64,000 nt of DNA from Microbotryum violaceum (lineage: Eukaryota). Made by a program: the position numbers and the translations under genes. The notes beneath the pieces were generated by a model. It saw only the letters and a list, made by a program, of their open reading frames with translations, did not search any database and was not told the DNA's origin. The DNA lies in contig CDLV01000019.1 of NCBI GenBank assembly GCA_001244265.2, positions 124,001 through 188,000 of the forward strand, in the 5' to 3' direction. Shown here piece after piece: positions 3,509-53,371 of the stretch (position 1 is its first letter; every line of letters begins with the position of its first letter).

Positions 3509-3531
3509 AACTTTCTTTTGTTTTCCAATTA

Positions 3532-5371
3532 CTAGCAACATTTGCAATCAAATCTCAGGATCTCACCCATGACTTGCCCGCACCCATTGCCAGCATAGAC
3601 AAGAACGATTTGGACGTTGGTGTGTTCGAGGAGATGGCCGAGATGGAGGTTGACGAGGAGACATGGTCCGAGATATGCTTCAGCTCAGATTCCAAGACGG
3701 ACAACAATTGCACCACAGATGACAAAACTCTGAAGCCAGGGGAATCAATCACAGCACAACGAGCCAGACTAGCCAAGGAGCATCTTAAAGACATTGAATA
3801 CTCAAAGGCTTCCCCGCAGCATTTGCTGAATTCGAGGCAAAGGTCAAGCAGCTCTGCCCAGGTTCGGACGTGAAGATTGCGAATCCCAGGATGGTACAGT
3901 GCAATCGCTGTTGTACCTATCACAAGATGAAGACACGGCACGGCGTCACTCGCTTCATGAGGCATATCAATCAAAACCCGCCGTGCACGAACATGCGCAA
4001 GATCGACCACTACTTTGCTGTCCGACCGCCCTCGGAAACGGCTGTTCGGTCGCAAGGCAAAACCCTGGAAGATTCTCCCCCGTGTCCCGGCCTGACAGGC
4101 AAGCGGGTAGAGCGATACCTCTCAAAGAGCTCTGCTCGAGGCGGAGGTGCACATCTCGGTTAAAGCTCATCAAGAGAAGGTTCCCAAGACTTGGCAAACA
4201 TGTGCTGACTCCCTCCAAACACTGTGAGATCAATAACCTGGAAGCGAACAAGTGGATGTGGGTGAACGATCATTCAGCACCTCGAGTGAACAGTATTGAC
4301 TGTACCAAGATTGGAGTAAGTTGCTTGAGCAGGAGAGAGAGAAGCGCGGAGCCAGTTGGCTCGGGTGAGCGCGCGGCTGGGCCTGCCACCTTTGTCAGGT
4401 GGACGGACCCAGCCCAGAAAAGGGAGAGAGCTGAGGTGTGGGAGGCAGGCCAAAAGGAGGTAAGGTGAGAATAAGAAAAGAAGACATGATGCAAGAAGGA
4501 AACATAAGAGGTTGTCAATCTCACACAATTGGCTTCTGTTGAGGCTCTGATGTCAAAGGTTTTCAAGGAACACCAAGGTCTGGAGGAACTCTTGGGGACC
4601 AAGGATGGCAAGATCTATCTTTGTTACGCCCAAGGCTTAGTTGTTGGCAAGCTTGCTGGAGCAAATATTCTGAAAGGTATGGCAAAAGTTGCCGTGATCA
4701 AGCATGGCAAAACGCACAAGGCAAGGACATGAGAGGCTATGTGCGAGACAAAGCTTTGCTCAACTTTGAACACGCGCTGGCTCTGGCATCTCCCACGGCC
4801 TTGCGCGTGGTGCAAAAAACAATTGGAGGAATCTTGATGCGCATACTTCAGTAAGTTTCAGACCTGAGCTATCCGTCACTCCTTCAAGCTACTGACAATT
4901 ACAAACCTCTCAGACAACACCGAGCGACATTTGAAAGGCCCAGGTTTGGCTTAGATGAGCCCCACATGCAGCGCGTTGTCCAAAAGATCCTTTTGGATGG
5001 AAAGATCTTCAACCTGCATGTTGACGACACGAAACTGCGACAAGTAATCAGGACAACACGGATTTATTTGAAGGACAAGGAGGCGGAAGCTCGCCTGCGC
5101 GGCCAGAAAATCTTTTGTCACAAGCTCATTGGCATGGTTGGCCCGCCAATCGTGTATGAAACCGGCACCAAGGTTGGTGACTATGTCTGCGCGGCACTTT
5201 GATTGGTTGCTCATTTGCTGGTGCTTCTGTGAATAGGTTCGCGTGTACATACTTGCACCAAACAATGTCTCTTGCCCAGCCCAATACCTTGCTGCATTTG
5301 TGATTAGCGACATGATGAGCTCATCCGAGGCTGCGGATGAATTGGAATCAGTTATTCAATTCCTTGTCAAC
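3532..5371 (+). mobile_element. Degenerate copy 1 (5'/central part) of the AGG-TIR P-like transposon
   Basis: Colinear with 42901-44607 of the long copy (EEMAE...WS.ICF, GKRVE.YLSKSSARGGGA, NLHVDDTKL), with many stops. Confidence 0.9.
4317..4525 (-). mobile_element. Putative solo LTR replacing ~125 bp of the P-like copy
   Basis: ~210-bp block absent from the long copy. On the minus strand it starts TGTGAG and ends TTA like the other LTR families here. No TSD seen. Confidence 0.4.
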
Positions 5372-7112
5372 GCGAGCTCTTCAAGGCGCTGCCAACCTAC
5401 TTTGCTCCCAAACTGTTGGACTTGTTCAACTCAATTTGGGAGGGCGGCAAAATGATGGCGTCCTTGGCAGAGGGGCTGGTGCGGCTCTTGCCCAAGAACA
5501 AACCGGGGGCCAATCTGAAATCACTGGGGGCATATCGACCGATCACACTGCGCGAGACAACCTACAAGGTCCTCAGCAAGGTCTTGGTGGCGCGACTCAA
5601 TGGGGTGCTTGGCAAGCTTTTGCCGCTGGCGCAACACGGGTTCATGCCATCAAGGATTGGCGACATTGTTCATTTGGTGGCGCTTCGATTTTGGGATGCT
5701 GTGGCGGGCTCAAACGAGGCAATCTGGGCGCCCCTAGCTTGTGAGAGCTGGAGGTCCCTCGTCGCTGCGACCCGCGATTTCAGTCCGTGGGGGTTCCTCA
5801 GCAGCACAGCTCAGCTCGAAAAGCTGTATTGCGACTCGACGCGCTGGGGGGCAGTCGTTGCAGCGGCCAGCGTCACCTTACCAACCATCAAGTCTGAACT
5901 CCTTACGCTCCCCAAATTACTCTCGCTTCCGCCTCGCCTTCCTTCACTATATGCCAAAGATGTCAAGTACACGTATTATAAGACGATCACCACTACTGTC
6001 AGGAGGGGTTGATAGTCGAACAGAAGTGATCTATTTCAGCGTACCTATAAAACAATCACCACTACTGTCAGGAGGGGTTGATAGTTGAACAGAAGTGATG
6101 AGGAGGAAGCTAAGAACAGACAGGAGGCCCGCGCTGAGATAGGCCCAGTCGCGGGTGAAATTGCTAGCGCCCTAAGACAGTCGCGCGCGTCTAAGTCCCC
6201 AGCGCCGGGGGGCGGGCTAGCGGGCTCGCGTAATGACCGAGGCGCCTCTGCCGAGCTGAGAGTGGACTCATCACACGTATGACTATGCGGATGCAGTGGC
6301 AAAGTTTGGCAGATCGCGGACCTGTACTGGAGGGACAAAGGGAAGGGCTGGGCTCTGGTTGGTCATCAACACGGGTTCTGGCAGCACTCTAAGGAACCCG
6401 CCCTACAGCACGAGCACATGTGGTCGCGCGTGGGTCAGTTGCTCAAGGCGAAAGCCTTGCTGCCCAAGACCGCGTTGCGACCTGCTTGGATACCTCTCAA
6501 GGAGGCTCCCCGTCCTCAGTGCTTCAACTTCTTTGGGCTCACCCAACCGTTCACTATTCGCAAGCTTTGTCAGCTTGTGAACATGGTTTGGTTCCCAGGG
6601 AGGGAGGATCGTGTCAAGTGTTTCCCTGATGGGACTTCTCAGAGCAATAGGAAGCGCTTCTGGAGATAGCTTCATGACCAGTTTGCGTCTGCTGTGGAGC
6701 AGGACACCCACTGGCGGCTCATGTACGACGTGACGCCGACGCTCAAGAGGCAGCATACTCAGGGTCATGCCTCTTTGCCGACGTGTCTGTTCTGCGGCAA
6801 CGATGCAGCGGTCATCGAGACAGTCTTGCACTACTTTTTTGAGTGCGCGTACTCGACCAGCTTCTGGGGCAGGGTGCTTTGCATTCTGTTTGACAAGCTC
6901 GGCATCGAGGATACCAATGTCGATCCGTCGACGTTCACTCCGGAGCAGCTGACTATGGGGCTCCTCCTTTTGCGGGGTTGTGGGAGAACGACCTCAAAAT
7001 GGATGTGGGTTTGGCTGGCTTGCGCGATCGGCTTCCAGCAGCTACACCTGCTCCGCTGGCGCGTTTATCAGCGGTTCGAGCTGGACAAGGTGCTGTGCCT
7101 TCCCTTGAGGTG
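5372..7112 (+). pseudogene. LINE ORF2 fragment: RT N-terminal part plus C-terminal Cys-rich (zf-RVT-like) region
   Basis: YRPITLRETTYKVLSKVLVARL...QHGFMPSR (RT domains 1-2) and CLFCG...ETVLHYFFEC...FW. Interrupted by a solo LTR. Confidence 0.85.
5977..6275 (-). mobile_element. Solo LTR family A with 5-bp TSD CGTAT
   Basis: CGTAT at 5972-5976 and 6276-6280. Reverse complement matches 8253-8565 and 20578-20944. Confidence 0.9.
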
Positions 7113-7719
7113 GGCACATTGATGGGCCCGACAGTGCTCAATCAAGCTTTTCAGATCAAGCGCAAGCTGACAAGTGTCGTGACGCAGAAGGGATGGGAGC
7201 CGAATGATTTGAGCCTGTGAAAGAATGCTGGTTCCGTTCAGTGTTGCTACACAAGAACAACTGCTGCTTAAATGAACCTACACGACCTGGCAAGCTTTCA
7301 TTTGCTGTCTCAATGGTGTCGAGTAGAAAGTGTTCCTCTGCTTGAGCATCGGCCTCATCATAGGCCTACTGAATGGCAAGCCTAGAAGTGAAAGAGATGT
7401 ACCATCAGCTTGGATGAGGCTGGTACAGGTCTCAAGCACTCAACTTACAGTGCAGCATCATTGTCAAGGCCAAGAGCAGCTAAAGAGCGAACAGCATTTT
7501 CAACTGACTTTCGCTCTTTCGGGTCCAGCACGAAGAGACCTTGGCACGTTTTGGTTTGGATCCCATTGAGGGTCCGATCTAGGTCAGCAAGGTACGAAAC
7601 CGGCTCAGTGTCCTTGGGCTCGAAATGCCAAGGTTCACTAGCTGTAAGGGGTGGCATCAATTAGCTTTGCTCAAAACGAAGCCACAAGCTTACAACACCC
7701 ACCATTGACTGGTATCTCT

Positions 7720-8813
7720 TGTCAGAGTGTAAATTGCTGTTTCATCCCACTTCTATTACCGATCATGATTAGTTACTAGTTGTTGATATTAGTCACCTTG
7801 CGCGCTCCTACTCTGCACTTCTCTTCTTTCTCCAACTGTCTTTACTATCATCCTTGGCTCTCGTACTAAACATATCTCGTGCCTTGGCTTTAGGTTAGTT
7901 ACTTTGCAATACCTGCAACTGTCTTTACTATCATCCTTGGCTCTCGTACTAAACATATCTTGTGCCTCGGCTTTAGGTTCTAATAGGTTATGAGCCAACC
8001 TGCTCGGGGCAACTCCAACAATATCGGTGGCATGGCATCCACACCTCCTCCTCCACCATCGTCATCAACGTCGAACCAGCCCTTCGATGTCGCCCCCCGC
8101 CACCGTTGTCACACTCACCAAGGAGCAATACGACGCTCTCGTAAAGAACCAATGCCCCGCACAAGCGCAGGAAGACGATGCAATCTCCATGCGTCACCTT
8201 CTCCCCCCCGTCAACCCTCCCACCTTCCCCCATGACTCAAAGCTCACCAAGGTGTGATGAGTCCACTCTCAGCTCGGCAGAGGCGCCTAGGTCATTACGC
8301 GAGCCCGCTAGCCCGCCCCCCGGCGCTGGGGACTTAGACGCGCGCGACTGACTCAGCGCGCCAGCACCGGGTGGATCCGTGCGCGTGCCCGCTAGGCCGC
8401 CCCCTGCGGTGGGGACTTAGACGCGCGCGACTGTCTTAGCGCGCTAGCAATTTCACCCACAACTGGGCCTATCTCAGCGCGGGCCTCCTGTCGGTTCTTA
8501 GCTTCCTCCTCATCACTTCTGTTCAACTATCAACCCCTCCTGACAGTAGTTGTGATCGTCTTATACAAATTTGGGCTTACAAGGTGCAGTGGTATGACAG
8601 CACGGGGGGGTGTCAGAGTGTATATTGCTGTTTCATCCCACTTCTATTACCAATCATGATTAGTTACTAGTTGTTGATATTAGTTGCCTCGCGCGGCTAT
8701 TGCTTGCCTTGCACGCTCCTACTCTGCGCTTCTCTTCTGTCTCCAACTGTCTTTACTATCCTCCTCGGCTCTCGTACTAAATGTATCTTGTGCCTTGGCT
8801 TTAGGTTCTAATA
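7720..8813 (+). mobile_element. Internally deleted Copia-type LTR element with both LTRs, PBS, PPT and TSD
   Basis: LTRs at 7720-7985 and 8611-8813 (TGTCAGAGTG...GGTTCTAATA), TSD TCTCT (7715-7719 and 8814-8818), PBS GGTTATGAGCC at 7986, G-run PPT before 8611, short gag start. Confidence 0.9.
8253..8565 (+). mobile_element. Solo LTR family A nested inside the deleted Copia
   Basis: TGTGATGAGTCCACTCTCAGC...GATCGTCTTATA. Flanks CAAGG and CAAAT do not form a clean TSD. Confidence 0.85.
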
Positions 8814-9244
8814 TCTCTTTCTCTACCTGGTTGGACTTCTGATAATGTATGGTATCCCACATTTGAAGACCAAGAAGGAGCTCTTTTGCAAGTCCTGCAG
8901 CAACCAAGCTTGTGGATCGAATCTCTTCATCGTTTGGATAAGTCGGCATTGCGACAAGGTCGAGCTTGTCGAGCTTGTCATACATGTGATGTAGCCTTGC
9001 CGCAAGCCTGCGGTCTCTGTTTTGAGCTTTCGCATCAATCCTAGGAGTGCAGTAACTTTGCTTGCCAACTAAAAGCCCAAAAATATAAGCTTTACAAGCA
9101 GTAGCTCACGTGAAACCATGAAACAAAGATGACTTACCTGCAGGAATTCTAAAGCATCAAATTCTGCGCAAACCGCCAAAAAAATGCTCGACCATCTCCG
9201 TACCATGTTGCCAAGGTATGGGTTGAACACTTCTTCCGGCCAAA

Positions 9245-10490
9245 AGTTGCGGTCAAGCGCCACTCTCGCTTGACAAGGCAGCCGACGACGGAACGTAGGG
9301 TCCGAGCGGTCGTCATTGTAGCATTTCGCTGCGCAAATAGGGTCGAGCAGGGATTGATGTGCGTTTGTTGGGTCGCCACAAGCTGGGTCCGGCGTGAAGA
9401 GTGACTGCGCATGCCGTGAAGCAATACCCAGTGCCTCCTGCATGTCAACGGTCTCGGTGCCATCCACATCTTCTAGCGGGATGATGCTCGTCTGGCGACT
9501 CTGGCGGTTGAGACGTGTGTGAATGCTTGCCAATTGACCTTCCCTCAAGTCAACTGACGGCACATGCGCACAAATGCGCAGCCACTGAGCCTCCTTTACC
9601 GCCAACTGGTCCAACCGCGACTTGGCAAGAGCATACACATCGCACTCGGCCTCATTCATGTGCTCACCGCGTGCCTCCAAAGCCTCCATGACGGAGTGGC
9701 TCTTGGCCCGCAGTCGGCGCATGTTGGCACGAGTCAAGCGGTATCGTGCATGGCCAGTGACTGCAACCGCCCGCAGAGCGGCGTCATAGACGTCGCCGAG
9801 CGGAGCGGTCCCCTCGAGCCTTCGATAGACCTCGTCGACGACCCTGGGAATCGATGCAACAAAGTCTTGATCATCAAAGACCGTTGGGTTGAGCCTCGAA
9901 ATAAAATCGCTCGCAGAGGGAAGAGAAAGGGGGGGTTTGGCATCAGCGTTCGATGAAGGCAATGCGAAGGTCGCAACTACAAGTCTGTGGTCCGAACAGG
10001 GCGCGTCAAAGAGCATAGAAGCGCTCAACAACCGGTTTGCCCAACTGCATTGACAAGAATACAGTCGATCCGCGACCATGAGCAATCTTTCGCTCCTCCC
10101 CTCTACCACGGTAGTGAGGACAAGTGAATGCGGGGGTGCAAGAATGGACATGTCGGACCGTGTCAAGTGCCTTGAACGCAATCTTTGACAGCAAGGTCTG
10201 CCAGTGCAATACAGGAGTCCAAGCGCAATCGGTGATGGACACTCGGTCGACCAATACATCCAAACAATCATTGAGATTGCCGGCCAAGATCCAAAGAGTC
10301 CTGGGTCTCGGGGTGTTGAAATGCAGGAGCCCAAAAAAGTCGCGACAATTGTCCTCCTGACAATTGTCCTGCTGTAGCGGCGCGTACATGTTGATGATCT
10401 CAACATCGAGCTCCTCAAGACGAAACACCGAGCGCAGAATCCGACCGTCGAAACGAGGAGCTCCTGCAAAGACGACCGACCTTGACTGCC
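9245..10490 (-). pseudogene. Second LINE family ORF2 fragment (AP endonuclease plus linker)
   Basis: IINMYAP, WILAGNLNDCLD and PCSDHRLVVATF motifs across ORFs 10006..10614 and 9069..10493 (frameshifted). Confidence 0.85.
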
Positions 10491-11710
10491 CAAGATTTCG
10501 ATCCCACATCAAAAGCGCAATTGTCTGAGCACGGTGAAGTGCACTCCAGTGTCCTCCGAGGCTTAGTGCAATCAATGAGTGCAGCCCATCTCGAAGCTGT
10601 GTCAGGAGTTGCAAGATCCATTTGTTGGACAGGACAAGGGACCTTCAGTCGCTTTTTGACCGCAAACAAGACAGACAACATAGGATACATCGAAGACGGA
10701 CATAAAGAAGTGAGCTACAATTGTGTGCTGTGCACATATCGCCCGGAGAGTGCTCATCAATGATGTTCATTCTTGCCCAGGTACGGATGCAATTGCGAGC
10801 AAGGCAATACACGGTATTCGCCAAGATCCCACCGTTTGGGTCGATTGACAGAAACGTCACGTCAGCCATGCCTTTGAAAATCGGCTCTCTTGTCTGCTTC
10901 GGATTGAAACAAGGCATCCTACCTGTCAGTTGTGACGCCAGCAACATAGGAGAAGAACAATTGTCCATTGGACTTGGTTTGTGCATCTCACTGTAGCTAG
11001 CTTACTGCTTTGCAGAGTGACTGACATCGATTTTACCTCTTGTAGTACGTTACATGGATGCCAAGGCCACGTCAAATCATTGTGACAGAGCGGAGACCGA
11101 CTCCCTCACATTACTCTCAAATGTCGTCCTCCAAGAATTACGAGTTGTGAGCAAGGGCCGTTATTCAACGCATATGATTGACGGCACGACTCGGTTCTTT
11201 GGACTCGATGCTCGACAAATCATTCAATCCTTGGAATCATCCTCGATGCCCGCGCTCACTCTCGCAACACTGGATTCAGTTGCATACCTCGGGGAGCGTG
11301 TCTTCGACTTGAGCCAGCAGGCTGAGGCAAGATTTTGTTTTCTTCGACGCTGCAACGGATTACGGGACCCTTCTGTGTCCTTGAGTAATCAAATGAAGGG
11401 CGTGAAAGATGTAGGGTCAAAAAGGAAGGCAGCAAGTGCAGGTGAGGAGCCCTTGGCCAAGCAGAACCGAACCAGCTGACACGGGCGCGGGCTCCGCCGA
11501 TTTGTCCGGACGGCGTTTTCACGATTTTTAGAGATGTTTTAGAGCATTTGAAGCAATTCTAGAGCTATTTTTTGAGGCGCGTAGATAGACTGGACATTTT
11601 GGAGACTTTTTTGGGCGAAAATCCCAAAAAATAGTGGACAAATGAGGTCCAAAATCGGCGATTTTCCCGGATTTTACCTACGCGCCTCAGGCTGGGCTTT
11701 CATGGGTCCT
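10490..11710 (+). mobile_element. 3' part and right TIR of P-like copy 1
   Basis: Matches ~46426-47669 and ends CCTACGCGCCTCAGGCTGGGCTTTCATGGGTCCT. Confidence 0.92.
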
Positions 11711-27072: not shown

Positions 27073-29327
27073 AGGACCCCCGAAAGCCCAGCCTGAGGCG
27101 CGTAGGTAAAATTCGCCAACCGGATTTTGGACATCATTTGTCCACCATTTTTTGGATTTTTCGGCCAAAAAGGTCCCCAACATGACCAGGCCATCTACGC
27201 ACGTCCAAAAATAGCTCTAGAATTGCTTCAAATGCTCTAAAACATCTTCAAAAATCGCGAAAACGCCGTCCGGACGTTTCTCGCCCGGACCGAATCGCCG
27301 GAGCCCGCGCGCGCATCAGCCGTTTCGGTTCTGCTTCGCCGAGGGCTGCTCACCTGCACTTACTGCCTACCTCTTTGGCTATGATTTAAAGTGGTCATGG
27401 TATACATGTAACGTACCACGAGAGGTAAGATCGATTGCAGTCACTCTGCGAAGCAGTAAGCTAGCTACGGTGAGATGTACGAACCAAGTCCAATCGACAG
27501 TTGTTCTTCTCCTATGTTGCTGGCGTCACAACTGACAGGTATCATGCCTCGTTTCAATACAGAGCAGACAAGAGAGCCGATTTTCAAAGGCGTAGCTGAC
27601 GTGACGTTTCCGTCGATCGACCCAAACGGTGGGATCTTGGGCGGATGCCGTGTATTGCCTTGCTCGCAATTGCATCCGTACCTGGGCAAGAATGAACATT
27701 ATTGATGAGCACTCTCTGGGCCATATGTGCGGAGCCCACAATTGCAGCTCACTTCTTTATGTCCGTCTTCGATGTATCCTATGTTTTCTGTCTTGTTTGC
27801 GGTCGAAAAGCGACTGAAGGTCCCTTGTCCTGTCCAACGAAAGGACCTCGCAACTCCTGACATGGCTTCGAGACGGGCTGCACCCATTGAATGCACGAAG
27901 CCTCGGAGGACACTGGAGTGCATTTCACCGTGCTCGGACAATTTTGCTTTTGATGTGGGATCGGATACTTGGGAAGTCGAGGTGGTGGCGCCGTGCCTTC
28001 CCTTGAGTAGGACAACTCTGAGATGGAAGCATTGATGTGCCCGACGGTGCTGGATCAAGCTTTTCAGATCAAGCGCAAGCTGACGAGATTCGTGACGCAG
28101 AAGGGATGGGAGCCGAATAGTTTGGCCTGTGAAAGAATGCTGGATCCATTTAGTGTTGCTAAACGAAACCAGTTGCTTAAATGAACCTACACGACCCGGC
28201 AAGCTTTCATTTGCTGTCACAATGGCGTCAAGCAGGCAGTGTTCCTCTGCTTGAGCATCGGCCTTGTCATAGGCCTGCTGAACGGCAAGCCTAGAATTGG
28301 AAGAGACGTATCATCAGCTCGGAGGAGGCTGGTACAGGTCTCAAGCACTCAAATTACAGTGCAGCATCATTGTCAAGGCCAAGAGCAGCTAAAGAGCGAA
28401 CAGCGTTTTCAACTGACTTCCACTCTTTCGGATCGTTTCGGGAGGTTGCGAGGCAGGACGGCGAAGCAAAGTGCCCCCGGTTGAGAAGTCGCGAGGCGGT
28501 GACGCGGCCTGGAGGAACGGCCGCGACGCAGCCGAGCGATCTGTTCTCTACGGAATCTCAGCAGTCTGATTGGTGAGATGAAACGATGATGCGATTGCAA
28601 CGGACCTGTTCTCTAACGAATCTCAGCAGTCTGAATGGTGAGGTGAAACGATAGAGAAGAGGGAGAGAGGCGCGAGAGCGCGCGAGTCTGACAAGGTTCT
28701 AGCAAGGGCGCGCGCTGGCGAGTCCGTCAAACGGCGGTCCGAGTCGAAGTGTTCGAAGGATAGGCAGAATGCAATTCAACAAAGAGACGGCGCACTCAGA
28801 CGAGACGCCTCGTTCAACCAACCAAGAGTATTATAATTGCAAAATCGAACCATTAGAGCCCTTGTTGTGAATTCGGTACCGGCCAGGGTGCTTCGCGCGC
28901 GCTCCGCACGTTCTTGCAAACTCTGGCGTACCAAGCCGAATGTGGCTGAAATGGGCCCAGATTTGTCCACTGGCACCGACCTACGGGCCTGGGACCTCAC
29001 CCGCACCGGCGCACCTGATTTGTCCACCATCTGAGGCCCACAATCATAGCAAAACCCCCCCCCCCTGAAATGGTACGATCCCGGGATGATACCCCCCCTG
29101 AAATGGTACGATCCCGGGATGAGGGTATCCCTGAAATGGTACGATCCCGGGATGAGGGTATGATCCCGGGATCGTACCATTTCAGGGGGGGATACCGGAT
29201 CATCCCGGGATCGTACCATTTCAGGAGGGGATACCGGATCATCCCGGGATCGTACCATTTCAGGGGGGGTTGCTATGATTTGTCCAGTCGGGCACTAAGC
29301 GCCTCAGGCCGGGCTTTCGGGGGTCCT
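27073..29327 (-). mobile_element. Non-autonomous deletion derivative of the AGG-TIR P-like transposon, both TIRs present
   Basis: Right TIR at 27073, left TIR ending at 29327. Internal parts match 45960-47669 and 41299-41660 in reverse. Confidence 0.92.
29045..29277. mobile_element. Foldback MITE, CATAGC termini, AT TSD, three ~30-bp repeats per arm
   Basis: AT|CATAGCAA...TTGCTATG|AT. Unit CCCTGAAATGGTACGATCCCGGGATGA occurs 3 times and its reverse complement 3 times. The empty site is visible at ~41340-41365. Confidence 0.88.
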
Positions 29328-31649: not shown

Positions 31650-31770
31650 CGAGTGCGGTGGCGCGCTTCGCGCGCCATGATGTCACGCCACGTGGTTTCT
31701 CTCGTTCTAGAACGTTCTTTGTCTCGACGGCCTATTTTATTATATAATAATAATAAATAATAAAATAATA

Positions 31771-41040: not shown

Positions 41041-42344
41041 CCGAGCGAATGGATGTGGGGATTGCGAGTAAGCTTGCTCCGTCAGTCTCTCGCTCAGACC
41101 GTTTCAAGGTCTGTCCCGAACTATGCGCGTGGGCAGTTGCTACGGCCCCAAGTGCCGGACGTGTGTAACCATATGTTGAAGGAGTGAAGAACTGCAGCCG
41201 GCGAGCTCAGCCGAGTCTTCGGCCTGATCGGGAATCCGAATAGTATGCGAACCTATCCGAATCCATCCGAATGACCACTTCTAGCAGGCAGCCAGGACAG
41301 GACCCCAGAAAGCCCAGCCTGAGGCGCGTAGTGCCCGACTGGACAAATTTGGGGCCTCAGATGGCCAAAATCGCGAAGGCGCGTAGTCGGGGGTGGACAA
41401 ATCAGGGCGCGCCGGTGGGGTCTAGGCCCGTAGGTGCCTGTGGACAAATCGGGGACCCATTTCAGCCACATTCGGCTTGGTACGCCAAAGTTTGCCGACC
41501 CTCAAAAACGTGCGGAGCGCGTGGGAAACACTCTGGGCTGTACCGAAGTAACAGCAAGGGCTCTAATTGTTCGATTTTGCAATTATAGCCTCTTGGCTGG
41601 TTAAACGATTTTGCAATTATAGCCACTTGGCTGGATGAACGAAAAGTCTGAGCCTTGCGCGCGTCTCTTGCCTTCCCCGCCGCGTTGCGTCGTCTGTGCC
41701 AACATCGTCATTATCCTACGTTCTCGCTTCAGTCAGCTTCGACGAAATGTATCTGGACGATCCGGATATCGAGCTCCTTGACGATGATTTTGAGCGAATG
41801 GCACCCCTTTTGGACGTCAGGGTGTCTGAGCTTCTCACCTTCCGCTTCGACAACCCAGACACGCAAATACAGCTTTCGTGGTCGACAGACGAGCCTCTCG
41901 AGTTTGATACTCTTCCTAGGCCGCTCCGCGCTTGGAGGGACAAGTTCAAGGATCGTGAAGCAATCACTGCGGCACGTAAACAAGGTTACCGGTCTATCGC
42001 TATCACCGGGCACCGGCTGCCTTTCGGTGTCGAAAGGATCTGGCGGCATATAGATTACGCCGAGCGCATGCGTTCGGTCGTTATCAATAGCTAAGAGTGG
42101 ATGAAAAGTTATCTGGGTGTCGATATCGAAAATCAGCCTCTCATCGTTAAGGCTCTGGAGGTGCTGCCGTCACTGCTCGTTGAGGACCAATATACCCTCA
42201 ATGATCCTCGGGTGTAGCGCGTCCTTGCGCACGCTGCTCGATTTCGTCGGTAAGCAGCCAATTTGTTCATTTGTTCGATCGCGTGATTGATTGGGATTAT
42301 TTTTCGTGCTTTTTCTAGGGACAACGTGACTTGGAGAAGCCGCG

Positions 42345-42965
42345 ATGGACGTTGCCATCACAAGCGTACTAGCTTCATCGCGTGTACAAGCGTCAACAGC
42401 ACCCGACAAAGTATACGGGGCATTCCCATCCGATCTCATGGCGATTTTGGTCGCTTCAAGAAAACATCAATCTGACTCCCCTCAACGTGAAGTCTTGGAC
42501 AAGTACATCTTCGCATCTCCTCTTGTCCCATATCGAACTCTCGCCGACCTTCGATCTTTCGTTAGAGCTCGCCCTCAATCGGTCTGGTTTCTCCCGCTCT
42601 GCTTTCGCGATCATTGGGCAATGGCACGTGTTGATGTTGGGCAAAGGACATGGATGCTCTTCAACTCGCTCTCGCATATTCGGATCGACAAGATTACTCG
42701 CAACTCGGCACTGGCCTTGTTTGACTACCTCGAGCTGCATATTCTCAACACTGAACCGAAGCAAGGCCGCATGGCTCAACAGGCTGACGGCTCCTCGTGC
42801 GGACCAGCGGCTATCAATGTCGTCGAAACCGAGCTTCTTTTGGTTCCACCTTTTTCGGCCGGTCGCGCTCATATCGCTCGCATTCGCCAGTTTCACCGAC
42901 TAGCAACATTCGCAACCAAATCTCAACATCTCACTCATGACTTTCCCGCGCCATTGCCGGCATAG
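42345..42965 (+). CDS. Ulp1/peptidase C48-like domain exon of the transposon protein
   Basis: FLPLCFRDHWAMARVD...LFNSL...QQADGSSCG: His-Trp, Asn in the Asp position, and Gln-x-Asp-x3-Cys-Gly as in C48 proteases. Confidence 0.8.
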   Translation: MDVAITSVLASSRVQASTAPDKVYGAFPSDLMAILVASRKHQSDSPQREVLDKYIFASPLVPYRTLADLRSFVRARPQSVWFLPLCFRDHWAMARVDVGQRTWMLFNSLSHIRIDKITRNSALALFDYLELHILNTEPKQGRMAQQADGSSCGPAAINVVETELLLVPPFSAGRAHIARIRQFHRLATFATKSQHLTHDFPAPLPA

Positions 42966-42976
42966 ACAGGAACGAG

Positions 42977-45900
42977 TTGGACGTCGAGGAGATGGCCGAG
43001 ATCGATAATGACGAGCAGACATGGTCCGGGATATGCTTCTGCTCAGATTCCGAGACGGACGACGATTGCACCACGGACGATGATTGCACCACGGACGATG
43101 ATTGCACCACGGACGACGAAACTCCGAAGTCGGGGGAATCAATCACAGCACGACGAGTCAGACTAGCCAAGGAGCATCTTAAAGACGTCGAATACTCGAA
43201 ACGGCACGGCTTCACTCGCTTCATGAAGCATCTCAACAAAAAGCCTCCGTGCACGAACATGCGCAAGATCGACCACGACTTTGCTGTTCGATCGCCCGCC
43301 GAAACAGCTGTCCAGTCGCAAGGCAAAAGCCTTGCCGATCCTCCCGCATGTCCCGGCTTAACAGGCAAGCGTGTAGAGATGTACCTCTCAAAGAGCTCTG
43401 CTCGAGGCGGAGGCGCACCATCTCGGCTAAAGCTCATCAAGAGAAGGTTCCCAAGAATTGGCAAACGTGTATTGACTCGTTCTGAACGCCGTGAGATCAA
43501 TTATCTGGAAGCGAACGAGTGGACGTGGGTGAACGATCATTCAGCACCCGAGTGAACAGTGTCAACTGTACCAGGATCGGAATGGAGTCGCAATGTGGAA
43601 CGAAATTGGAGTCTTGCGCCAAATGCAAGGCACTGCTTCGCACGAAAGCCTTCTCACAGGCGTTACATCGTCCTCGGGCTGTCGGACCCACAATCAAGTT
43701 CACGAATAAACGATTGGCTTCCGTCGAGGCTTTGATGTCAAAGGTTTTCAAGGAACACCAAGGTCTGGAGGAACTTTTGGGGACCAAGGATGGCAAGGTC
43801 TATCTTCGTTTCGCTCAAGGTTTAGTTTCCGGCGAGCTGGCTGGAGCCAACATTCTGAAAGGTATGGCAAAAGTCGCCGTGATCAAGCATAGGCGGGACG
43901 CACAAGGCAAGGACATGAGAGGCTATGTGCGAGACGAAGCTTTGCTCGACTTTGAACACGCGCTGGCTCTGGCATCTCCCACGGCGTTGCGCGTGGTGCA
44001 AAAAACTGTCGGCGGAGTCTCGATGCGCACACTTCAGCAAGTTTCAGACCTGAGCTATCCGTCATTCCTTCAGGCTACTGACGATTCTAAACCTCTCAGA
44101 CAACATCGAGCAACATTCGAAAAGCCCAAGTTCGGCTTAGATGAGCCCCACATGCAGCGCATTATCCTAAAGATCCTTTCGGATGGGAAGACCTTTAACC
44201 TCCACGTCGACGACACGAAACTGCGCCAAGTAATCAGGACAACACGGTTTTATTCGAAGGACAAGGAAGCGGAAGCTCGCCTGGGCGGGCAGAAAATCTT
44301 CCGTCACGAGCTCGTTGGCATGGTTGGCCCGCCAATCGTGTATGAAACCACGCAGGAGCTCGAGGGTATCTTTCGGGGACCGAACCCTCCAATCGCTGGC
44401 ACCAAGGTCGGTGACTATATCTGCGCAGCGCTTTGATTGATTGCTCATTTGCTGGCGCTTGTGTGGATAGGTTCGAGTGTGCATGCTTGCACCAAACGAT
44501 GTCTCTTGCCCAGCCCAATACCTTGCCGCATTCGTGATTGGCGACTCGACGAGCTCATCCGAGGCTGCGGATGAATTGGAATCAGTTATTCAATTCCTTG
44601 TCAACGCTGGGCTAGGTCATCTTCTTGCCTCCATCTCGGCGGATGGGGCGGCAAGCGAAGGCGTCTTGCAGCGCGTCATGGCAGGGCGACTTGGCGGCGA
44701 TGAGGGGTATACCGGAGAGGGGAACCGTCGGCGAGAGCTCGCACATGTCATTCCATCTCCAGGTCCCGACAAAGTCTTCCCAGCCATTCGACTGGCATCC
44801 GTTCAAGTGGGCAACACTCCAACGTGCTTCAATCGGGACGAAAAGCACTTGAGCAAAAATCTCCGCAGCGCGTGCGATTCAGGCGCCAGGGCAATATACG
44901 GCGGCACCGGATGTATCGGATATCGTGACCTGTTGACGCTGCTCAACGTCGAAGAGTCGGCGAGGACCTTGTATCTACGTGATGTAATTGGACGTGATCG
45001 TCAAGATGACAATGCGACGCATCGAGCGTTCTCCGAAGCTACTCTCGCGCTTGCTTGCCGACTTTACGAGGACGGCAAATTCGATGCCGATGCCATCGTC
45101 TTCCTCTTTCTCTGCGGCGAGCTTCACGACGCGATACATAACAGGTCCTTGCAGCCGATTGAACGTATTAAGATGCTATTGACGGTTTGTTAAACATTTG
45201 AGGGATGGTTGACCTTCGTGCGCAATCGTCCCGGGTACAACGCGCAGGCCTTTATTGCCAAGGAGACCCTGGATGGTATGCGAAAGGTCGTCAATGCAAA
45301 CATCGCCCTTATTCGGAACTACCGCGACTTTTGGCCGGAAGAAGCGTTCATACCATGGCGACATGGTACGGAGATGGTCGAGCATTTTTTTGGCGGTTTG
45401 CGCAAAGTCGTGCAAGAATTTGATGCTCTAGAATTCCTGCAGGTAAGTCATCTTTTGTTTCATGGTTTCACGTGAGCTACTGCTTGTAAAGCTTATATTT
45501 CGGGTTTTTAGTCGGCAAGCAAAGTTACTGCGCTTCTAGGACTGATGCGAAAGCTCAAGACAGAGACCGCAGACTCGCGTCAAGGCTACCATCACATGTA
45601 TGACAGGCTCGACGATCTCGACCTCGTCGCAATGCAGACTTATCCAAGCGATGAAGAGATTCGGTCCACAAGCTTGGTTGCTGCAGGACTTGCAAAAGAG
45701 CTTCTTCTTGGTCTTCGAATGTGGGATACCATACAATATCAGAAGTCCAACCAGCTAGAGGAAGATATACCGGTCAATGGTGGGTGTCGCCCAAGCTTGT
45801 GGCTTCGTTTTGAGCAAAGCTGATTGATGTCGCCCCTTCCAGCTAGTGAACCTTGGCATGTCGAGCCCGAGGACGCTGAGCCGCTTTCGTACCTCGCTGA

Positions 45901-46039
45901 CCTAGATCGGACCCTCGATGGGATCGGCACCAAAATGTGCCAAGGTCTCGTCGTGCTGGACCCGAAAGAGCGAAAGTCAGTTGAAAATGCTGTTCGCTCT
46001 TTAGCTGCTCTTGGCCTTGACAATGATGCTGCACTGTAA
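42977..46039 (+). pseudogene. P-element-type DDE transposase, intron-containing, frameshifted
   Basis: NLHVDDTKL (D1), ISADGAASE (D2), RDEKHLSKNLR (DxxH motif), TEMVEHFFGGLR (E). Single-base losses relative to copy 1 near 42950 and 43548. Confidence 0.75.
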
Positions 46040-47669
46040 GTTGAGTGCTTGAGACCTGTACCAGCCTCGTCCGAGCTGATGATACGTCTTTTTCAATTCT
46101 AGGCTTGCCGTTCAGCAGGCCTATGATGAGGCCGATGCTCAAGCAGAGGAACGCTTTCTACTCGACACCCATTGTGACAGCAAATGAAAGCTTGCCAGGT
46201 CGTGTAGGTTCATTTAAGCAGCAGTTGTTCTTGTGTAGCAACACTGAACGGAACCAGCATTCTTTCACAGGCCAAACTATTCGGCTCCCATCCCTTCTGC
46301 GTCACGAATCTCGTCAGCTTGCGCTTGATCTGAAAAGCTTGATCCAGCACCGTCGGGCACATCAATGCTTCCATCTCAGAGTTGTCCTACTCAAGGGAAG
46401 GCACGGCGCCACCACCTCGACTTCCCAAGTATCCGATCCCACATCAAAAGCAAAATTGTCCGAGCACGGTGAAATGCACTCCAGTGTCCTCCGAGGCTTC
46501 GTGCATTCAATGGGTGCAGCCCGTCTCGAAGCCATGTCAGGAGTTGCGAGGTCCTTTCGTTGGACAGGACAAGGGACCTTCAGTCGCTTTTCGACCGCAA
46601 ACAAGACAGAAAACATAGGATACATCGAAGACGGACATAAAGAAGTGAGCTGCAATTGTGGGCTCCGCACATATGGCCCAGAGAGTGCTCATCAATAATG
46701 TTCATTCTTGCCCAGGTACGGATGCAATTGCGAGCAAGGCAATACACGGCATCCGCCCAAGATCCCACCGTTTGGGTCGATTGACGGAAACGTCACGTCA
46801 GCCATGCCTTTGAAAATCGGCTCTCTTGTCTGTTTCAGATTGAAACGAGGCATCATACCTGTCAGTTGTGACGCCAGCAACATAGGAGAAGAACAATTGT
46901 CCATTGGACTTGGTTTGTGCATCTCACTGTAGCTAGCTTACTGCTTTGCAGAGTGACTGACATCGATCTTGCCTCTGGTAGTACGTTACATGTATGCCAA
47001 GGCTACGTCAAATCATTGTGACAGAGTGGAAACCAACTCCCTAGCATTACTATCGAATGTCGTCCTCCAAGAATTGCGAGTTGTCAGCAAGGGCCGTTAT
47101 TCAACGCATATGATTGACGGCACGACTCGGTTCTTTGGACTCGATGCTCGACAAATCATTCAATCCTTGGAATCATCCTCGATGCCCGCGCTCACTCTCG
47201 CACCACTGGATTCAGTTGCATACCTCGGGAGCGTGTCTTCGACTTGAGCCAGCAGGCTGAGGCAAGATTTTGTTTTCTTCGACGCTGCAACGGATTACGG
47301 GACCCTTCTGTGTCCTTGAGTAATTAAATGAAGGGCGTGAAAGATGTAGGGTCAAAAAGGAAGGCAGCAAGTGCAGGTGAGGAGCCCTCGGCGAAGCAGA
47401 ACCGAACCGGCTGACACGCGCGCGGGCTCGGGCGGGCTCCGCTGGTTCGGCTCGGGCGAAAAACGTCCGGACGGCGTTTTCGCGATTTTTGGAGATGTTT
47501 TAGAGCATTTGAAGCAATTTTAGAGCTATTTTTGAGGCGCGTAGATGGACTGGACATTCGGGCACCTTTTTGGCCGAAAAATCCAAAAATTGGTGGACAA
47601 ATAAGGTCCAAAATCCCGGATTTTCGCGGATCTTACCTACGCGCCTCAGGCTGGGCTTTCGGGGGTCCT

Positions 47670-48287
47670 CCCATGGTACGGCGCTACCCTTGCGCCCAAG
47701 ACTTGGCGAGGTTGCGATGGCCCTCCCTGGCGACCTTGGGACCGGGGCATAGTAGCGAGGGTTTGTTCTTGAATGAGTGTCACTGAAATTGGATGAGAAT
47801 GGGATGGAGAAAGGAGAGGTTCGAAGGAGTGGCGCAGGATTATTTACGTGGTTTGTTTTGTTGTTCAGCCCCTAACGCCGCTGGTCGACTGGGCAATGAC
47901 ACGGCAGGCGCGCCGCATCACGTGACAGATATTAGCCCTCGCCCCGCGCGTCAGCCGCCAGGCGGAGCTGTGCTGTAGAAGCAATGTCATGCAAAGCCAC
48001 GCGCTTGCCGTCCATTAAATGCAATATAAGTGCAAGCATTGCTTGACGTCAATTAAAAAAAGAAAGAAAATACTGGGAACGCTGTAGCTTCGTTCGATCG
48101 GCACGAAAAATAGGAAAGTCGGCACAGCGCTGGTACATGACTTCTGATCGGACCATGGACACCCCAGACAGGTGCGGCAGACACAACAGTATGCTGGTAC
48201 AGCCACCACAGGGGCCGCAACCGACTCAAAAACAGCGATTTTAGGTACATTCCTTAACTCAACTTTTTTTTTATAAAGAGGTAGTAA
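47670..48287 (-). mobile_element. Helitron 5' fragment, the target of the P-like right end
   Basis: Matches 30971-31625 from CCCATGGTAC onward. Confidence 0.85.
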
Positions 48288-52515: not shown

Positions 52516-53371
52516 ATGTTGCCCAGGTACGGATGCAATTGCAATACACGGCATTCGCCAAGATCCCACCGTTTGGGTCGATCGACGGAAACGTCACGTC
52601 AGCTACGCCTTTGAAAATCGGCTCTCTTGTCTGCTCTGTATTGAAACGAGGCATGATACCTGTCAGTTGTGACGCCAGCAACATAGGAGAAGAACAACTG
52701 TCGATTGGACTTGGTTCGTACATCTCACCGTAGCTAGCTTACTGCTTCGCAGAGTGACTGCAATCGATCTTACCTCTCTTGGTACGTTACATGTATACCA
52801 TGGCCACGTTAAATCATAGTCAAAGAGGTAGGTAGTAAGTGCAGGTGAGCAGCCCTCGGCGAAGCAGAACCGAAACGGCTGACGCGCGTGCGGGCTCCAG
52901 CGATTTGGTCCGGGCGAACAACGTCCGGACGGCGTTTTCACGATGTTTGAAGATGTTTTAGAGCATTTGAAGCAATTCTAGAGCTATCTTTGGACGCCCG
53001 TACTACGTTGCGCACGATGATTCATGCAGCCAGGACTTGGGCTACTTCGGACCACTCGCTCTTTAGCTGCTCTTGGCCTTAACAGTGATACTGCACCGTA
53101 AGTTGAGTGCCATGAGACCTGTACCAGCCTCCTCTGAGCTGATAACTCATCTCTTCCAATTCTAGGCTTGCCGTTCAGCAAGCCTATGACGAGGCCGATG
53201 CTCAAACAGAGGAACGCTTCCTGCTCGGCGTGTAGATGGACTGGACATTTTGGGGACCTTTTTGGCCGAAAAATCCAAAGATTGGTGGACAAATGAGGTC
53301 CAAAATTCCGGATTTTGGCGGATTTTACCTACGCGCCTCAGGCTGGGCAGGGCTGGGCTTTCGGGGGTCCT
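52516..53371 (+). mobile_element. Right-end fragment of a non-autonomous P-like element
   Basis: Matches 27073-27690 in reverse. Ends GGGCTTTCGGGGGTCCT with a ~10-bp duplication inside the TIR. Confidence 0.9.

What the first reader, a model, noticed from the sequence alone, without database searches (positions are those of the whole stretch)
41299..47669. Fungal P-element-like transposon carrying a Ulp1/SUMO-protease-like domain, with non-canonical AGG termini
Seen: a 6.37-kb unit bounded by ~33-bp TIRs. It contains, in order, a C48-like protease exon (HW...NS...QxDxxxCG), an acidic linker, Cys motifs, and a DDE core with D/D/DxxH/E spacing (VDDTKL, SADGA, DEKHLSKNLR, EHFFGGLR). Known: this motif layout is that of P-element/THAP9 transposases, which usually have an N-terminal THAP finger and CA termini. 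Ulp1-like domains are known from Mutator, CACTA and Zisupton-type elements. Inference: a distinct P-like lineage with no visible THAP and a fused protease that might counter SUMO-dependent host silencing. Copy 1 reads in frame across the end of the protease exon and the linker, which supports a single fusion protein.
Basis: partly seen in the sequence, partly recalled or inferred. Interest (0 to 1): 0.85.

Follow-up and report, generated by a model that had tools for sequence, protein, structure and literature searches.

The report
Fungal P-type transposon with Ulp1 protease
This is a decayed copy of a jumping gene of basidiomycete fungi whose cut-and-paste enzyme resembles the fruit-fly P element transposase and carries a SUMO-type protease at its front end, a pairing I did not find described.

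Summary
Window 41299-47669 is a 6,371-bp element with 33-bp terminal inverted repeats (32/33). More ends and fragments lie elsewhere in the window.

The + strand encodes an N-terminal Ulp1/C48-like domain, an acidic linker, a Cys-rich region and a DDE core.

The P-like reading is supported. A model of the 94%-identical relative P0002 matches Drosophila P transposase at Z 27.1; the next best is Transib at 12.0. All named ESM Atlas neighbours are TNP-like. The P-type HTH model PF12017 hits 5 of 49 relatives. In metagenome relatives, 8 of 14 complete elements have perfect 8-bp target duplications and the same AGGACCCC termini.

The protease is real at family level: Ulp1 E 8e-16, catalytic His and Cys in 34 of 37. 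No THAP domain was found.

The focal copy is dead, with two private 1-nt deletions, two in-frame stops and a 125-nt deletion. P elements are already catalogued in rust fungi. I found no paper on a Ulp1 fusion in P, and Repbase could not be searched. Verdict: a new variant of a known kind, of moderate interest.

The parts
41299..47669 (+). Whole element, 6,371 bp: a decayed autonomous-type copy
   Evidence: It is bounded by the TIR pair. The flanks differ in every copy right up to AGG. Summed contig depth inside is roughly 5-40 times that of the left flank in three DNA runs. This is a rough multicopy signal, not a copy number.
41299..41331 (+). Left terminal inverted repeat, 33 nt, starting AGGACCCC
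47637..47669 (-). Right terminal inverted repeat, 33 nt, 32/33 identical to the left one
41323..41449 (+). Subterminal short repeats: candidate transposase binding sites (inference)
   Evidence: GGCGCGTAG lies at 41323 and 41378. TGGACAAAT lies at 41340, 41394 and 41441. Both motifs recur in the right end.
41747..42103 (+). N-terminal coding segment. ATG at 41747 is the candidate start.
   Evidence: tblastn of P0006 residues 30-161 maps to 41723-42103; translation. The exon structure between 42103 and 42330 is unresolved.
42330..42911 (+). Ulp1/C48-like protease domain: His codon 42612-42614, Asn (in place of the triad Asp) 42663-42665, Gln 42780-42782, Cys 42798-42800
   Evidence: Pfam PF02902 gives E 7.9e-4, 19.8 bits. 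P0006 residues 202-392 map here. Fold of the relative P0005, residues 148-379: NEDP1 Z 19.0, Ulp1 Z 17.2.
42327..42329 (+). Private nonsense codon TGA, where relatives have Trp
   Evidence: Sequence. Most contigs of other copies read G at 42329 (table 3). P0006 has W here.
42950..42950 (+). Frameshift between the protease exon and the linker (1 nt missing)
   Evidence: Other copies carry an extra C behind 42950: depth 1433 of 2192, 179 of 388 and 131 of 196 in X10, X1 and X3 (table 4). Copy 1 is in frame here.
42941..43200 (+). Acidic linker (DDDCTTDDD repeats)
43217..43630 (+). Cys/His-rich region upstream of the HTH. It holds ACPGLTGK at 43346 and CGTKLESCAKC at 43594, and is a putative zinc-binding DNA-binding module. 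Its first CxxC...H...C finger is half deleted in this copy.
   Evidence: Conserved columns in A1, A4 and A5. Copy 1 keeps 125 nt (3807-3931) that are missing here. No Pfam family, no THAP.
43546..43546 (+). Second frameshift (1 nt missing)
   Evidence: Other copies carry an extra C behind 43546: 1433 of 2432, 137 of 302 and 108 of 343. Copy 1 reads WVNDHSAPRVNSIDC in frame.
43735..45442 (+). P-like transposase core (HTH, RNase H fold, helical insertion domain), interrupted by three introns. DD 44209-44214, D of SADG 44642-44644, DxxH 44837-44848, DRQDD 44996-45010, E codons 45371-45373 and 45380-45382.
   Evidence: Motif coordinates are; conservation. P0002 model against 6p5a/6pe2: Z 27.1, model residues 15/41-538 against chain residues 123/138-565.
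44037..44099 (+). Inferred intron, 63 nt, GC-AG in this copy
   Evidence: P0002, P0005 and P0006 all lack these 21 codons. Copy 1 has a stop inside. Sequence.
44407..44470 (+). Inferred intron, 64 nt, GT-AG
   Evidence: Sequence. P0002 reads ...AGTK|VRV... across it.
45191..45193 (+). In-frame TAA, where relatives have Tyr
   Evidence: P0002 and P0003 read TVRYTFEGW.
45443..45511 (+). Inferred intron, 69 nt, GTAAGT...AG
   Evidence: Sequence. P0003 reads EFLQ|SASKV across it.
45512..46635 (+). C-terminal part of the transposase gene, with further stops and frame changes
   Evidence: tblastn of P0006 residues 1194-1485
27073..29327 (-). 2.25-kb internal-deletion derivative of the same family, with both TIRs
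3531..11710 (+). 'Copy 1': a rearranged copy. The left part 3531-5407 is direct, 7106-9253 is inverted, and the right end 10479-11710 carries a TIR.
52519..53371 (+). Right-end fragment of another copy, with a TIR ending at 53371

Best explanation
The stretch is a dead copy of a multicopy cut-and-paste DNA transposon of a basidiomycete. The host is probably a Microbotryum anther-smut fungus, judging from a 94%-identical protein of M. lychnidis-dioicae.

In intact form the element encodes one protein of about 1,500 aa. In order it holds an N-terminal region, a Ulp1/SENP-type (C48) cysteine protease domain, an acidic linker, a Cys/His-rich putative zinc-binding DNA-binding region, a helix-turn-helix and an RNase H-fold DDE core. 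The core has a D(2)H motif and a large helical insertion domain, and is built like Drosophila P element transposase.

Shown here:
- the TIRs and the multicopy state
- the fold match to P transposase
- the C48 fold, and conservation of its active-site residues across the family
- the 8-bp target duplication and AGGACCCC termini in relatives
- near-identical relatives sitting at different sites, which indicates recent mobility

Inferred:
- The transposase binds the TIR and the subterminal GGCGCGTAG/TGGACAAAT repeats through the Cys-rich and HTH regions. It then excises and reinserts the element by DDE chemistry with an 8-bp staggered target cut, as P elements do.
- The protease is needed for the element's spread, because its catalytic residues are kept. 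It most likely removes SUMO or NEDD8-like modifiers from host chromatin or repair factors, or from the transposase itself.
For: Element:
- 33-nt TIRs; 5 TIR matches in the window against 0 expected.
- Fragments and a 2.25-kb deletion derivative lie in the same window.
- Summed depth in the element is far above the left flank in three DNA runs, and other runs show deletion-derivative joints.

Family:
- 500 proteins at E<=1e-3 and 315 at E<=1e-10.
- 22 of the 30 proteins looked up carry an organism name, and all 22 are basidiomycete genera (the phylum assignment is from my own knowledge).

P-like core:
- The AF2 model of P0002 has pLDDT mostly above 85 for residues 40-540.
- Foldseek puts 6p5a_A first at E 1.7e-13; the next hit, RAG1, is at 3e-4.
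- VIA gives Z 27.1 with 395-406 aligned residues. Next are 12.0 (Transib), 11.9 (Tn5), 10.7 (RAG1) and 9.8 (Hermes).
- All named Atlas neighbours carry PF21787/PF21788/PF21789, with scores 0.90-0.95 and TM by query 0.65-0.80.
- PF12017 hits 5 of 49 relatives, 3 above cut-off.
- Catalytic columns are conserved: D139 38/40, D261 94/98, D326 108/110, H329 110/110, E507 112/119.
- 8 of 14 complete relatives have a perfect 8-bp TSD.

Protease:
- PF02902 hits 29 of 49 relatives, 24 above cut-off.
- The family profile hits Ulp1 at E 8e-16.
- Active-site columns: His 34/37, Asp 32/37, Gln 34/37, Cys 34/37.
- The P0005 model matches NEDP1 (Z 19.0), SENPs, and Ulp1 (Z 17.2).

Fusion:
- Copy 1 is in frame at both junctions.
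- Most other genomic copies carry the two missing bases.
- In L001 one open frame of 572 codons overlaps a single-frame tblastn match to P0048 residues 322-995. That stretch runs from the C48 active site into the Cys-rich region.

Recent mobility of relatives: L037 and L039 are 99.86% identical over 6,280 bp and have different TSDs.
Against: - No sequence-level match links the core to Drosophila P transposase: profiles A1 and A3 against PDB sequences find nothing at E<=1 and E<=10. Nor does the core reach Pfam's TNP-like RNase H/GBD models. There is no hit at the listing thresholds, and the only one is P0084 at E 0.14.
- Several other superfamilies (Kolobok, MuDR, KDZ, Dada and others) have no solved structure, so the fold search cannot rank them.
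- Neither complete pair in the window shows a TSD: 4/8 and 3/8 matches.
- 6 of 14 metagenome elements also lack a TSD.
- The window's lineage has Asn in place of the protease's triad Asp, so activity in this lineage is uncertain.
- There is no RNA evidence for a single transcript.
- The fused gene models in other genomes are predictions.
- GTP use, protease substrate and DNA binding are all untested.
Confidence: 0.85

Rival explanations
1. The family is not a member of the P superfamily. It is a separate, sister-level superfamily that shares only the general architecture (HTH, RNase H, helical insertion) with P/THAP9. It has its own DNA-binding module in place of THAP, and its own termini.
For: - HMMER profiles of 37 and 119 members find no P transposase in the PDB.
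- PF21787-PF21789 do not hit at the listing thresholds. In one search the only such hit is at E 0.14.
- The spacing differs from Drosophila. D139-D261-D326-E507 in P0002 compares with D230-D303-D339-E531 (PMC8230255, passages read).
- No THAP was found.
- The AGGACCCC termini are conserved.
Against: - Z 27 with about 400 aligned residues is far above all other transposase folds.
- PF12017 passes Pfam's own cut-off in 3 relatives.
- All named Atlas neighbours are TNP-like.
- The 8-bp TSD and TIRs of about 33 bp agree with P.
Confidence: 0.25
2. It belongs to KDZ/Zisupton, a superfamily already known to carry a SUMO protease and to make 8-bp TSDs.
For: - Zisupton makes 8-bp TSDs and occurs in Pucciniomycotina and Agaricomycetes (PMC12730594, passages read).
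- From my own knowledge, not checked here, Zisupton carries a SUMO-protease domain.
- Cys-rich regions lie upstream of the core, as in KDZ.
Against: - No Pfam family other than PF02902, PF12017 and scattered weak hits appears in the 49 relatives or the 7. In particular there is no KDZ (PF18758) or CxC family, although Pfam models for KDZ transposases and their CxC domains exist (recalled).
- The best fold match is P transposase, and all named Atlas neighbours are TNP-like.
- No KDZ structure is solved, so fold evidence cannot exclude a deep relationship.
Confidence: 0.05
3. The Ulp1-like part is a captured, non-functional host gene fragment (as in some plant Mutator-like elements), or a separate neighbouring gene joined to the transposase by gene predictors.
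For: - The window's own C48 match is marginal, at 19.8 bits.
- The triad Asp is Asn in the Microbotryum/Phenoliferia lineage.
- There is no RNA evidence.
- 20 of 49 relatives scanned show no C48 hit. Many of these are short or partial gene models.
Against: - His, Gln and Cys are each kept in 34 of 37 long relatives that share about 20% identity.
- The domain keeps the same N-terminal position in species from at least three basidiomycete classes (class assignment recalled).
- It lies inside the TIRs.
- Frames are continuous across the protease-linker junction in copy 1 and in most genomic copies. In L001 the protease and the Cys-rich region lie in a single open frame.
Confidence: 0.08

Closest known systems
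P superfamily: Drosophila P element transposase and THAP9 (PDB 6p5a/6pe2; Pfam PF12017, PF21787-PF21789)
   Same: - The order of HTH, RNase H-fold DDE core with D(2)H, and a large helical insertion domain between beta5 and alpha4.
- Fold match of Z 27.1 over about 400 residues.
- TIRs of about 33 bp.
- 8-bp TSD in relatives.
   Different: - No THAP domain; a different Cys/His-rich region takes its place.
- An N-terminal Ulp1 protease of about 200 aa plus an acidic linker.
- The protein is about twice as long.
- The core is too diverged for HMMER to link it to Drosophila P or to Pfam's RNase H/GBD models.
- The termini are AGGACCCC.
- GTP dependence is unknown.
P elements of rust fungi in Repbase (P-1_PSt, P-1_MLP, P-2_MLP; PMC3164196, passage read)
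   Same: - The host subphylum is Pucciniomycotina.
- They are classed as P.
- They make 8-bp TSDs.
   Different: I could not see the Repbase entries, so I cannot say whether they are the same lineage or carry Ulp1. The passage read mentions no protease. None of the 22 relatives with an organism name came from a rust.
Transposases fused to Ulp1: Ginger1 and Mutator-like elements (PMC2836005, passages read); Zisupton (recalled)
   Same: A C48 domain with catalytic residues is carried inside a DNA transposon, in Ginger1 as part of the transposase protein.
   Different: - In Ginger1 the protease is C-terminal; here it is N-terminal.
- The transposase is of a different superfamily (retroviral-integrase-like, MuDR or KDZ).
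Ulp1/SENP/NEDP1 proteases (1euv, 2bkq, SENP1-7)
   Same: - The fold matches at Z 17-19 with rmsd 2.6-3.6 over 176-212 residues.
- His, Gln and Cys sit in the canonical motifs.
   Different: - In the window's lineage Asn replaces the triad Asp.
- The domain is part of a transposase.
- The substrate is unknown, and the top hits include both SUMO and NEDD8 proteases.

Membership tests
P superfamily (P element/THAP9-type transposons) | RNase H-fold DDE core with the D(2)H motif after beta5 | tested here: met
   Motifs lie at 44203, 44636, 44837 and 45368. Columns are conserved: 38/40, 94/98, 108/110, 110/110 and 112/119. The motif alone is also shared by hAT, MuDR, Kolobok and Dada (PMC9587614).
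P superfamily (P element/THAP9-type transposons) | Overall fold like P transposase, including the helical insertion (GTP-binding) domain | tested here: met
   6pe2_A/6p5a_A score Z 27.1 with 395-406 aligned residues. Model residues 15/41-538 align to chain residues 123/138-565, a range that includes the insertion domain 339-528 (domain limits from PMC8230255). The model is of P0002, which is 94% identical to the window, not of the broken window copy itself.
P superfamily (P element/THAP9-type transposons) | GTP binding as cofactor | not testable with these tools
   No residue-level structural alignment was available. The conserved RDVxxxDRQDD block lies in the insertion domain, but I could not map it onto DmTNP D444.
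P superfamily (P element/THAP9-type transposons) | Sequence match to Pfam TNP-like models (PF12017 HTH; PF21787, PF21788, PF21789) | tested here: inconclusive
   PF12017 hits 5 of 49 relatives, 3 above cut-off. PF21787 appears once, at E 0.14. PF21788 and PF21789 never appear. The window's own ORFs have no hit.
P superfamily (P element/THAP9-type transposons) | N-terminal THAP zinc finger | tested here: not met
   No THAP hit in the 9 window ORFs, one copy-1 fragment or the 50 relatives scanned. A different conserved Cys/His region is present instead, and its fold was not determined.
P superfamily (P element/THAP9-type transposons) | 8-bp target site duplication | tested here: met
   8 of 14 complete metagenome relatives have a perfect 8/8 TSD. 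The two complete pairs in the window show none, at 4/8 and 3/8. An 8-bp TSD is also made by hAT and Zisupton.
Peptidase C48 (Ulp1/SENP) | Sequence match to PF02902 / Ulp1 | tested here: met
   The window ORF scores 19.8 bits, just under the 20.7 cut-off. 24 of 49 relatives are above the cut-off. The family profile hits 1euv at E 8e-16.
Peptidase C48 (Ulp1/SENP) | Catalytic His-Asp-Cys triad plus the oxyanion Gln | tested here: inconclusive
   His, Gln and Cys are present in the window. The Asp is Asn in the window, P0005, P0006 and P0011. The wider family keeps Asp in 32/37.
Peptidase C48 (Ulp1/SENP) | C48 fold | tested here: met
   P0005 model residues 148-379: NEDP1 2bkq Z 19.0, SENP2/3/5 Z 18, Ulp1 1euv Z 17.2. 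The model is of a relative that is 52% identical in the transposase core.
Peptidase C48 (Ulp1/SENP) | Isopeptidase or processing activity on SUMO or NEDD8 | not testable with these tools
   This needs an enzyme assay.
KDZ / Zisupton | KDZ transposase domain and CxC cysteine clusters (Pfam models; accession PF18758 recalled) | tested here: not met
   No such family is listed for any of the 50 relatives or the window ORFs.
hAT | hAT-type fold and C-terminal dimerisation domain | tested here: not met
   Hermes scores Z 9.2-9.8, against 27.1 for P. No hAT Pfam family is listed.
Kolobok | TTAA-specific 4-bp TSD | tested here: not met
   The TSDs are 8 bp and varied (GGCCAATC, GGGGAAAT, GTGCCCCT and others). 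The Kolobok rule is from PMC9587614 (passage read).

The most novel reading that the evidence does not exclude
A basidiomycete-wide lineage of P/THAP9-type transposons has swapped THAP for another zinc-binding module. It has also made an active Ulp1-type protease an obligatory N-terminal part of the transposase. The protease is required for transposition. It could strip SUMO or NEDD8 from chromatin-silencing or DNA-repair factors at the element. It could instead process the polyprotein at the nearly invariant Gly-Gly-Gly that follows it. If so, these fungi have a P-type transposon with built-in counter-silencing or self-maturation. P-type elements would then be common in Basidiomycota, not the 'single occurrences' found in a Pfam-based survey.
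Probability: 0.3. Interest if true: 0.7.

Novelty: new variant of a known kind. Interest (0 to 1): 0.45.

Why it matters
P elements are a classic model, yet they are regarded as rare in fungi. A survey of 1,730 fungal genomes found 11 P elements, described as 'single occurrences' (PMC5751038, passages read).

This family gave 315 representative proteins at E<=1e-10. Every member that carries an organism name comes from a basidiomycete genus. Relatives also fill many metagenome contigs. Its core escapes the Pfam P models, so Pfam-based surveys probably miss or misfile it.

The family adds P-type elements to the list of transposon superfamilies that have independently taken up a Ulp1 protease: Mutator, Ginger1, Zisupton, and a pogo-like case noted elsewhere in this scan. 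That strengthens the view that SUMO or ubiquitin-like pathways matter for DNA transposition.

The near-identical copies at different sites (L037 and L039) point to natural, probably active elements in which the role of the protease could be tested directly.

Tried and rejected
- Whole genome: none is held, so copy number and TSDs could not be surveyed in the host.
- RNA: no RNA holder is listed. Run X20 was only guessed to be RNA, and its contig runs unspliced across the 45443-45511 intron. This gives no evidence either way on expression or splicing.
- Sequence links to solved transposases: single ORFs and profiles A1 and A3 against PDB sequences found no transposase.
- The search for homologous proteins with A1 returned only 4 Microbotryum proteins, too few to describe the family.
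- TSD of the window copies: none was found. I tested whether the focal copy sits inside the high-copy repeat that starts at 47670 (a second copy lies at 30971-31632). The left flank does not continue that repeat, so no empty site could be rebuilt. No contig joined the two flanks.
- Exon structure between 42103 and 42330 and downstream of 45820: not resolved in this decayed copy.
- GTP-site mapping: the Ghanim et al. 2019 paper is not held, and no residue-level structural alignment is given by the tools.
- Literature: no paper was found holding Ulp1 together with P element/THAP9 in a relevant sense. Microbotryum and rust TE papers do not mention it. Repbase itself and the papers' supplements were not searched.
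- Earlier notes of this scan: nothing at this place or for this sequence.

Full report
**The observation**

The element is real and its coordinates are exact. The repeat finder gives arms at 41292-41331 and 47637-47676. Comparing all ends shows that similarity begins at AGG (41299 and 47669) and that the flanks differ in every copy. The 33-nt TIR occurs 5 times in the window at up to 3 mismatches, against 0 expected in 100 shuffles.

BLAST of the element against the window finds:
- a rearranged copy at 3531-11710
- a 2.25-kb internal-deletion derivative at 27073-29327 with both TIRs
- a right-end fragment at 52519-53371
- a solo TIR at 63614

In three DNA runs, summed contig depth inside the element is roughly 5-40 times that of the left flank. 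Other runs hold deletion forms that join 41364 to 47483 and 42337 to 45942. Summed depth is not a copy number, but the element is clearly multicopy.

**What the focal copy encodes**

Mapping the 1,517-aa Microbotryum silenes-dioicae protein P0006 onto the window covers its residues 30-1485 between 41723 and 46635 on the + strand.

Three introns can be inferred from relatives' proteins and splice signals:
- 44037-44099, GC-AG in this copy
- 44407-44470
- 45443-45511

The copy is dead:
- The frame changes at about 42950 and about 43546.
- There are stops at 42327-42329 and 45191-45193.
- 125 nt present in copy 1 (3807-3931) are missing. They encode half of a CxxC...H...C finger.

The two frameshifts are private to this copy. 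Contigs from other genomic copies mostly carry an extra C behind 42950 and behind 43546, and read G at 42329 (TGA becomes TGG). Copy 1 reads in frame across both junctions. With those bases present, the protease, linker, Cys-rich region, HTH and first catalytic Asp lie in one frame.

**The family**

A read-through of 44471-45442 (P0001) found 500 proteins at E<=1e-3, 315 at E<=1e-10 and 17 at E<=1e-30 among 1.84 billion representatives.

The best hit is a hypothetical protein of Microbotryum lychnidis-dioicae, 94% identical. The window therefore probably comes from that genus.

Of 30 hits looked up, 22 carry an organism name. All 22 are basidiomycete genera: Microbotryum, Phenoliferia, Naganishia, Schizophyllum, Mycena, Steccherinum, Ceratobasidium, Cylindrobasidium, Agrocybe, Trametes, Galerina, Artomyces, Ephemerocybe, Marasmius, Bondarzewia, Hohenbuehelia and Pleurotus. 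The phylum assignment is from my own knowledge. All are annotated as hypothetical or by automatic names, and one is misnamed as a tRNA ligase.

**Protease**

- The window's own ORF scores 19.8 bits against PF02902, with a cut-off of 20.7.
- Among 49 relatives scanned, 29 have a Peptidase_C48 hit, 24 of them above the cut-off. In the long proteins the hit always lies N-terminal to the core.
- A profile of 37 long relatives hits yeast Ulp1 at E 8e-16 and SENP1 at about 3e-13.
- In that alignment His is kept in 34/37, Asp in 32/37, Gln in 34/37 and Cys in 34/37, at about 20% overall identity. This argues for selection on catalysis.
- The Microbotryum and Phenoliferia sequences and the window have Asn instead of Asp. 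This is a lineage trait, not damage. Whether His-Asn-Cys is active is unknown.
- An AF2 model of P0005 places residues 148-379 on NEDP1 (Z 19.0, rmsd 2.8, 193 residues), SENP2/3/5 (Z about 18) and Ulp1 (Z 17.2).

**Transposase**

Pfam finds nothing in the window's core ORFs. Profiles do not reach any solved transposase by sequence. The link to P comes from four other lines.

1. Fold. The AF2 model of P0002 (119-sequence alignment, pLDDT mostly above 85 for residues 40-540) has Drosophila P transposase as its top Foldseek hit (E 1.7e-13, TM 0.71 by target); the next is RAG1 at 3e-4. VIA gives Z 27.1 with 395-406 aligned residues spanning chain residues 123/138-565. That range covers the HTH, both RNase H halves and the insertion domain. 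The next best scores are 12.0 (Transib), 11.9 (Tn5), 10.7 (RAG1) and 9.8 (Hermes).
2. ESM Atlas. All named neighbours of P0002 residues 100-545 carry TNP-like RNaseH_N/GBD/RNaseH_C. The first Atlas call had already pointed the same way.
3. Pfam. The P-type HTH model PF12017 hits 5 of 49 relatives, 3 above cut-off. P0144 carries both PF12017 and PF02902.
4. Target duplication. A metagenome scan returned 80 loci. In 15 of them a complete element is bounded by AGGACCCC termini, and 14 have both flanks. Of those 14, 8 have a perfect 8-bp TSD; the other 6 match at 1-3 of 8 positions. Chimeric assembly of repeats is one possible cause of the misses, but I did not test it.

The terminal AGGACCCC is thus a conserved hallmark of the lineage, shared by elements whose DNA is otherwise barely alignable. 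L037 and L039 are 99.86% identical over 6,280 bp at different sites with different TSDs. L001 and L002 are 99.79% identical with different flanks. So some relatives moved recently.

**Against the rivals**

- Kolobok makes TTAA 4-bp TSDs (same paper), which does not fit.
- hAT and Zisupton also make 8-bp TSDs (Zisupton: PMC12730594, passages read). However, Hermes scores only Z 9.8, and no KDZ, CxC, hAT, MULE or CACTA Pfam family appears in any scan.
- No structure exists for KDZ, Kolobok or MuDR, so a deep relationship cannot be ranked by fold.
- I keep 'a separate sister superfamily of P' as a live rival at 0.25, because the catalytic core is beyond HMMER's reach and THAP is absent.

**What is known**

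- P elements were reported in rust fungi (P-1_PSt; P-1_MLP and P-2_MLP with 8-bp TSDs) as 'previously unknown in any Dikarya' (PMC3164196, passage read).
- Repbase held 17 fungal P entries from Pucciniales and Allomyces. A Pfam-based survey found only 11 P elements in 1,730 genomes (PMC5751038, passages read).
- Ulp1 domains are documented in Mutator and Ginger1 elements (PMC2836005, passages read).
- Earlier notes of this scan describe a pogo-Ulp1 fusion in Naegleria.
- My searches for Ulp1 together with P element, THAP9 or Tnp_P_element found nothing relevant.
- I could not see Repbase or any supplements, so the rust entries may already show this architecture.

**Mechanism, with its basis**

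Shown:
- TIR-bounded multicopy element
- P-like fold with conserved D, D, D(2)H and E
- conserved C48 active site
- 8-bp TSD in relatives
- recent mobility of relatives

Inferred:
- The Cys-rich region and the HTH bind the TIR and the subterminal GGCGCGTAG/TGGACAAAT repeats.
- DDE chemistry with an 8-bp staggered target cut moves the element.
- The insertion domain may bind GTP, as in Drosophila.
- The protease acts on SUMO or NEDD8-type conjugates of host factors or of the transposase itself. It might instead process the protein.

**Verdict**

The focal copy itself is an ordinary dead transposon. The family is a widespread, uncharacterised, THAP-less, Ulp1-bearing P-type lineage of Basidiomycota: a new variant of a known kind, of moderate interest.

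Noticed in passing
window 47670-48273 and 30971-31632: A different high-copy repeat starts exactly at the element's right boundary. It has a second copy in the window at 81% identity. In three DNA runs its summed contig depth is about 50-200 times that of the single-copy left flank. In other genomic copies it extends further left.
   Followed up: partly
window 43370-43420; P0005 about residue 572; columns G782-G784 of A5: A nearly invariant Gly-Gly-Gly (YLxRTxxxGGGxxS) lies downstream of the protease, in the Cys-rich region. Ulp1-type proteases cut after Gly-Gly, so self-processing is conceivable. The motif sits in a confidently folded stretch and may be only structural.
   Followed up: no
window 1-64000: The window holds at least five copies or fragments of this one family, plus several other repeat families (for example 14435-15585, 19048-20308 and 30241-31650) and tandem repeats at 31909-32906. 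It is a transposon-rich region.
   Followed up: no
window 44037-44042: The first core intron begins GCAAGT in this copy, a GC-AG intron. It may instead be a T-to-C change in a decayed copy.
   Followed up: no
P0144: One full-length family member in a public Marasmius genome is named 'Methionine--tRNA ligase, mitochondrial'. This looks like an annotation error, since it carries the C48 and P-type HTH hits.
   Followed up: no
window 41294-41303: The left flank ends in AGGAC and the element begins with AGGAC, giving a 5-nt tandem at the junction. Its significance is unknown.
   Followed up: no
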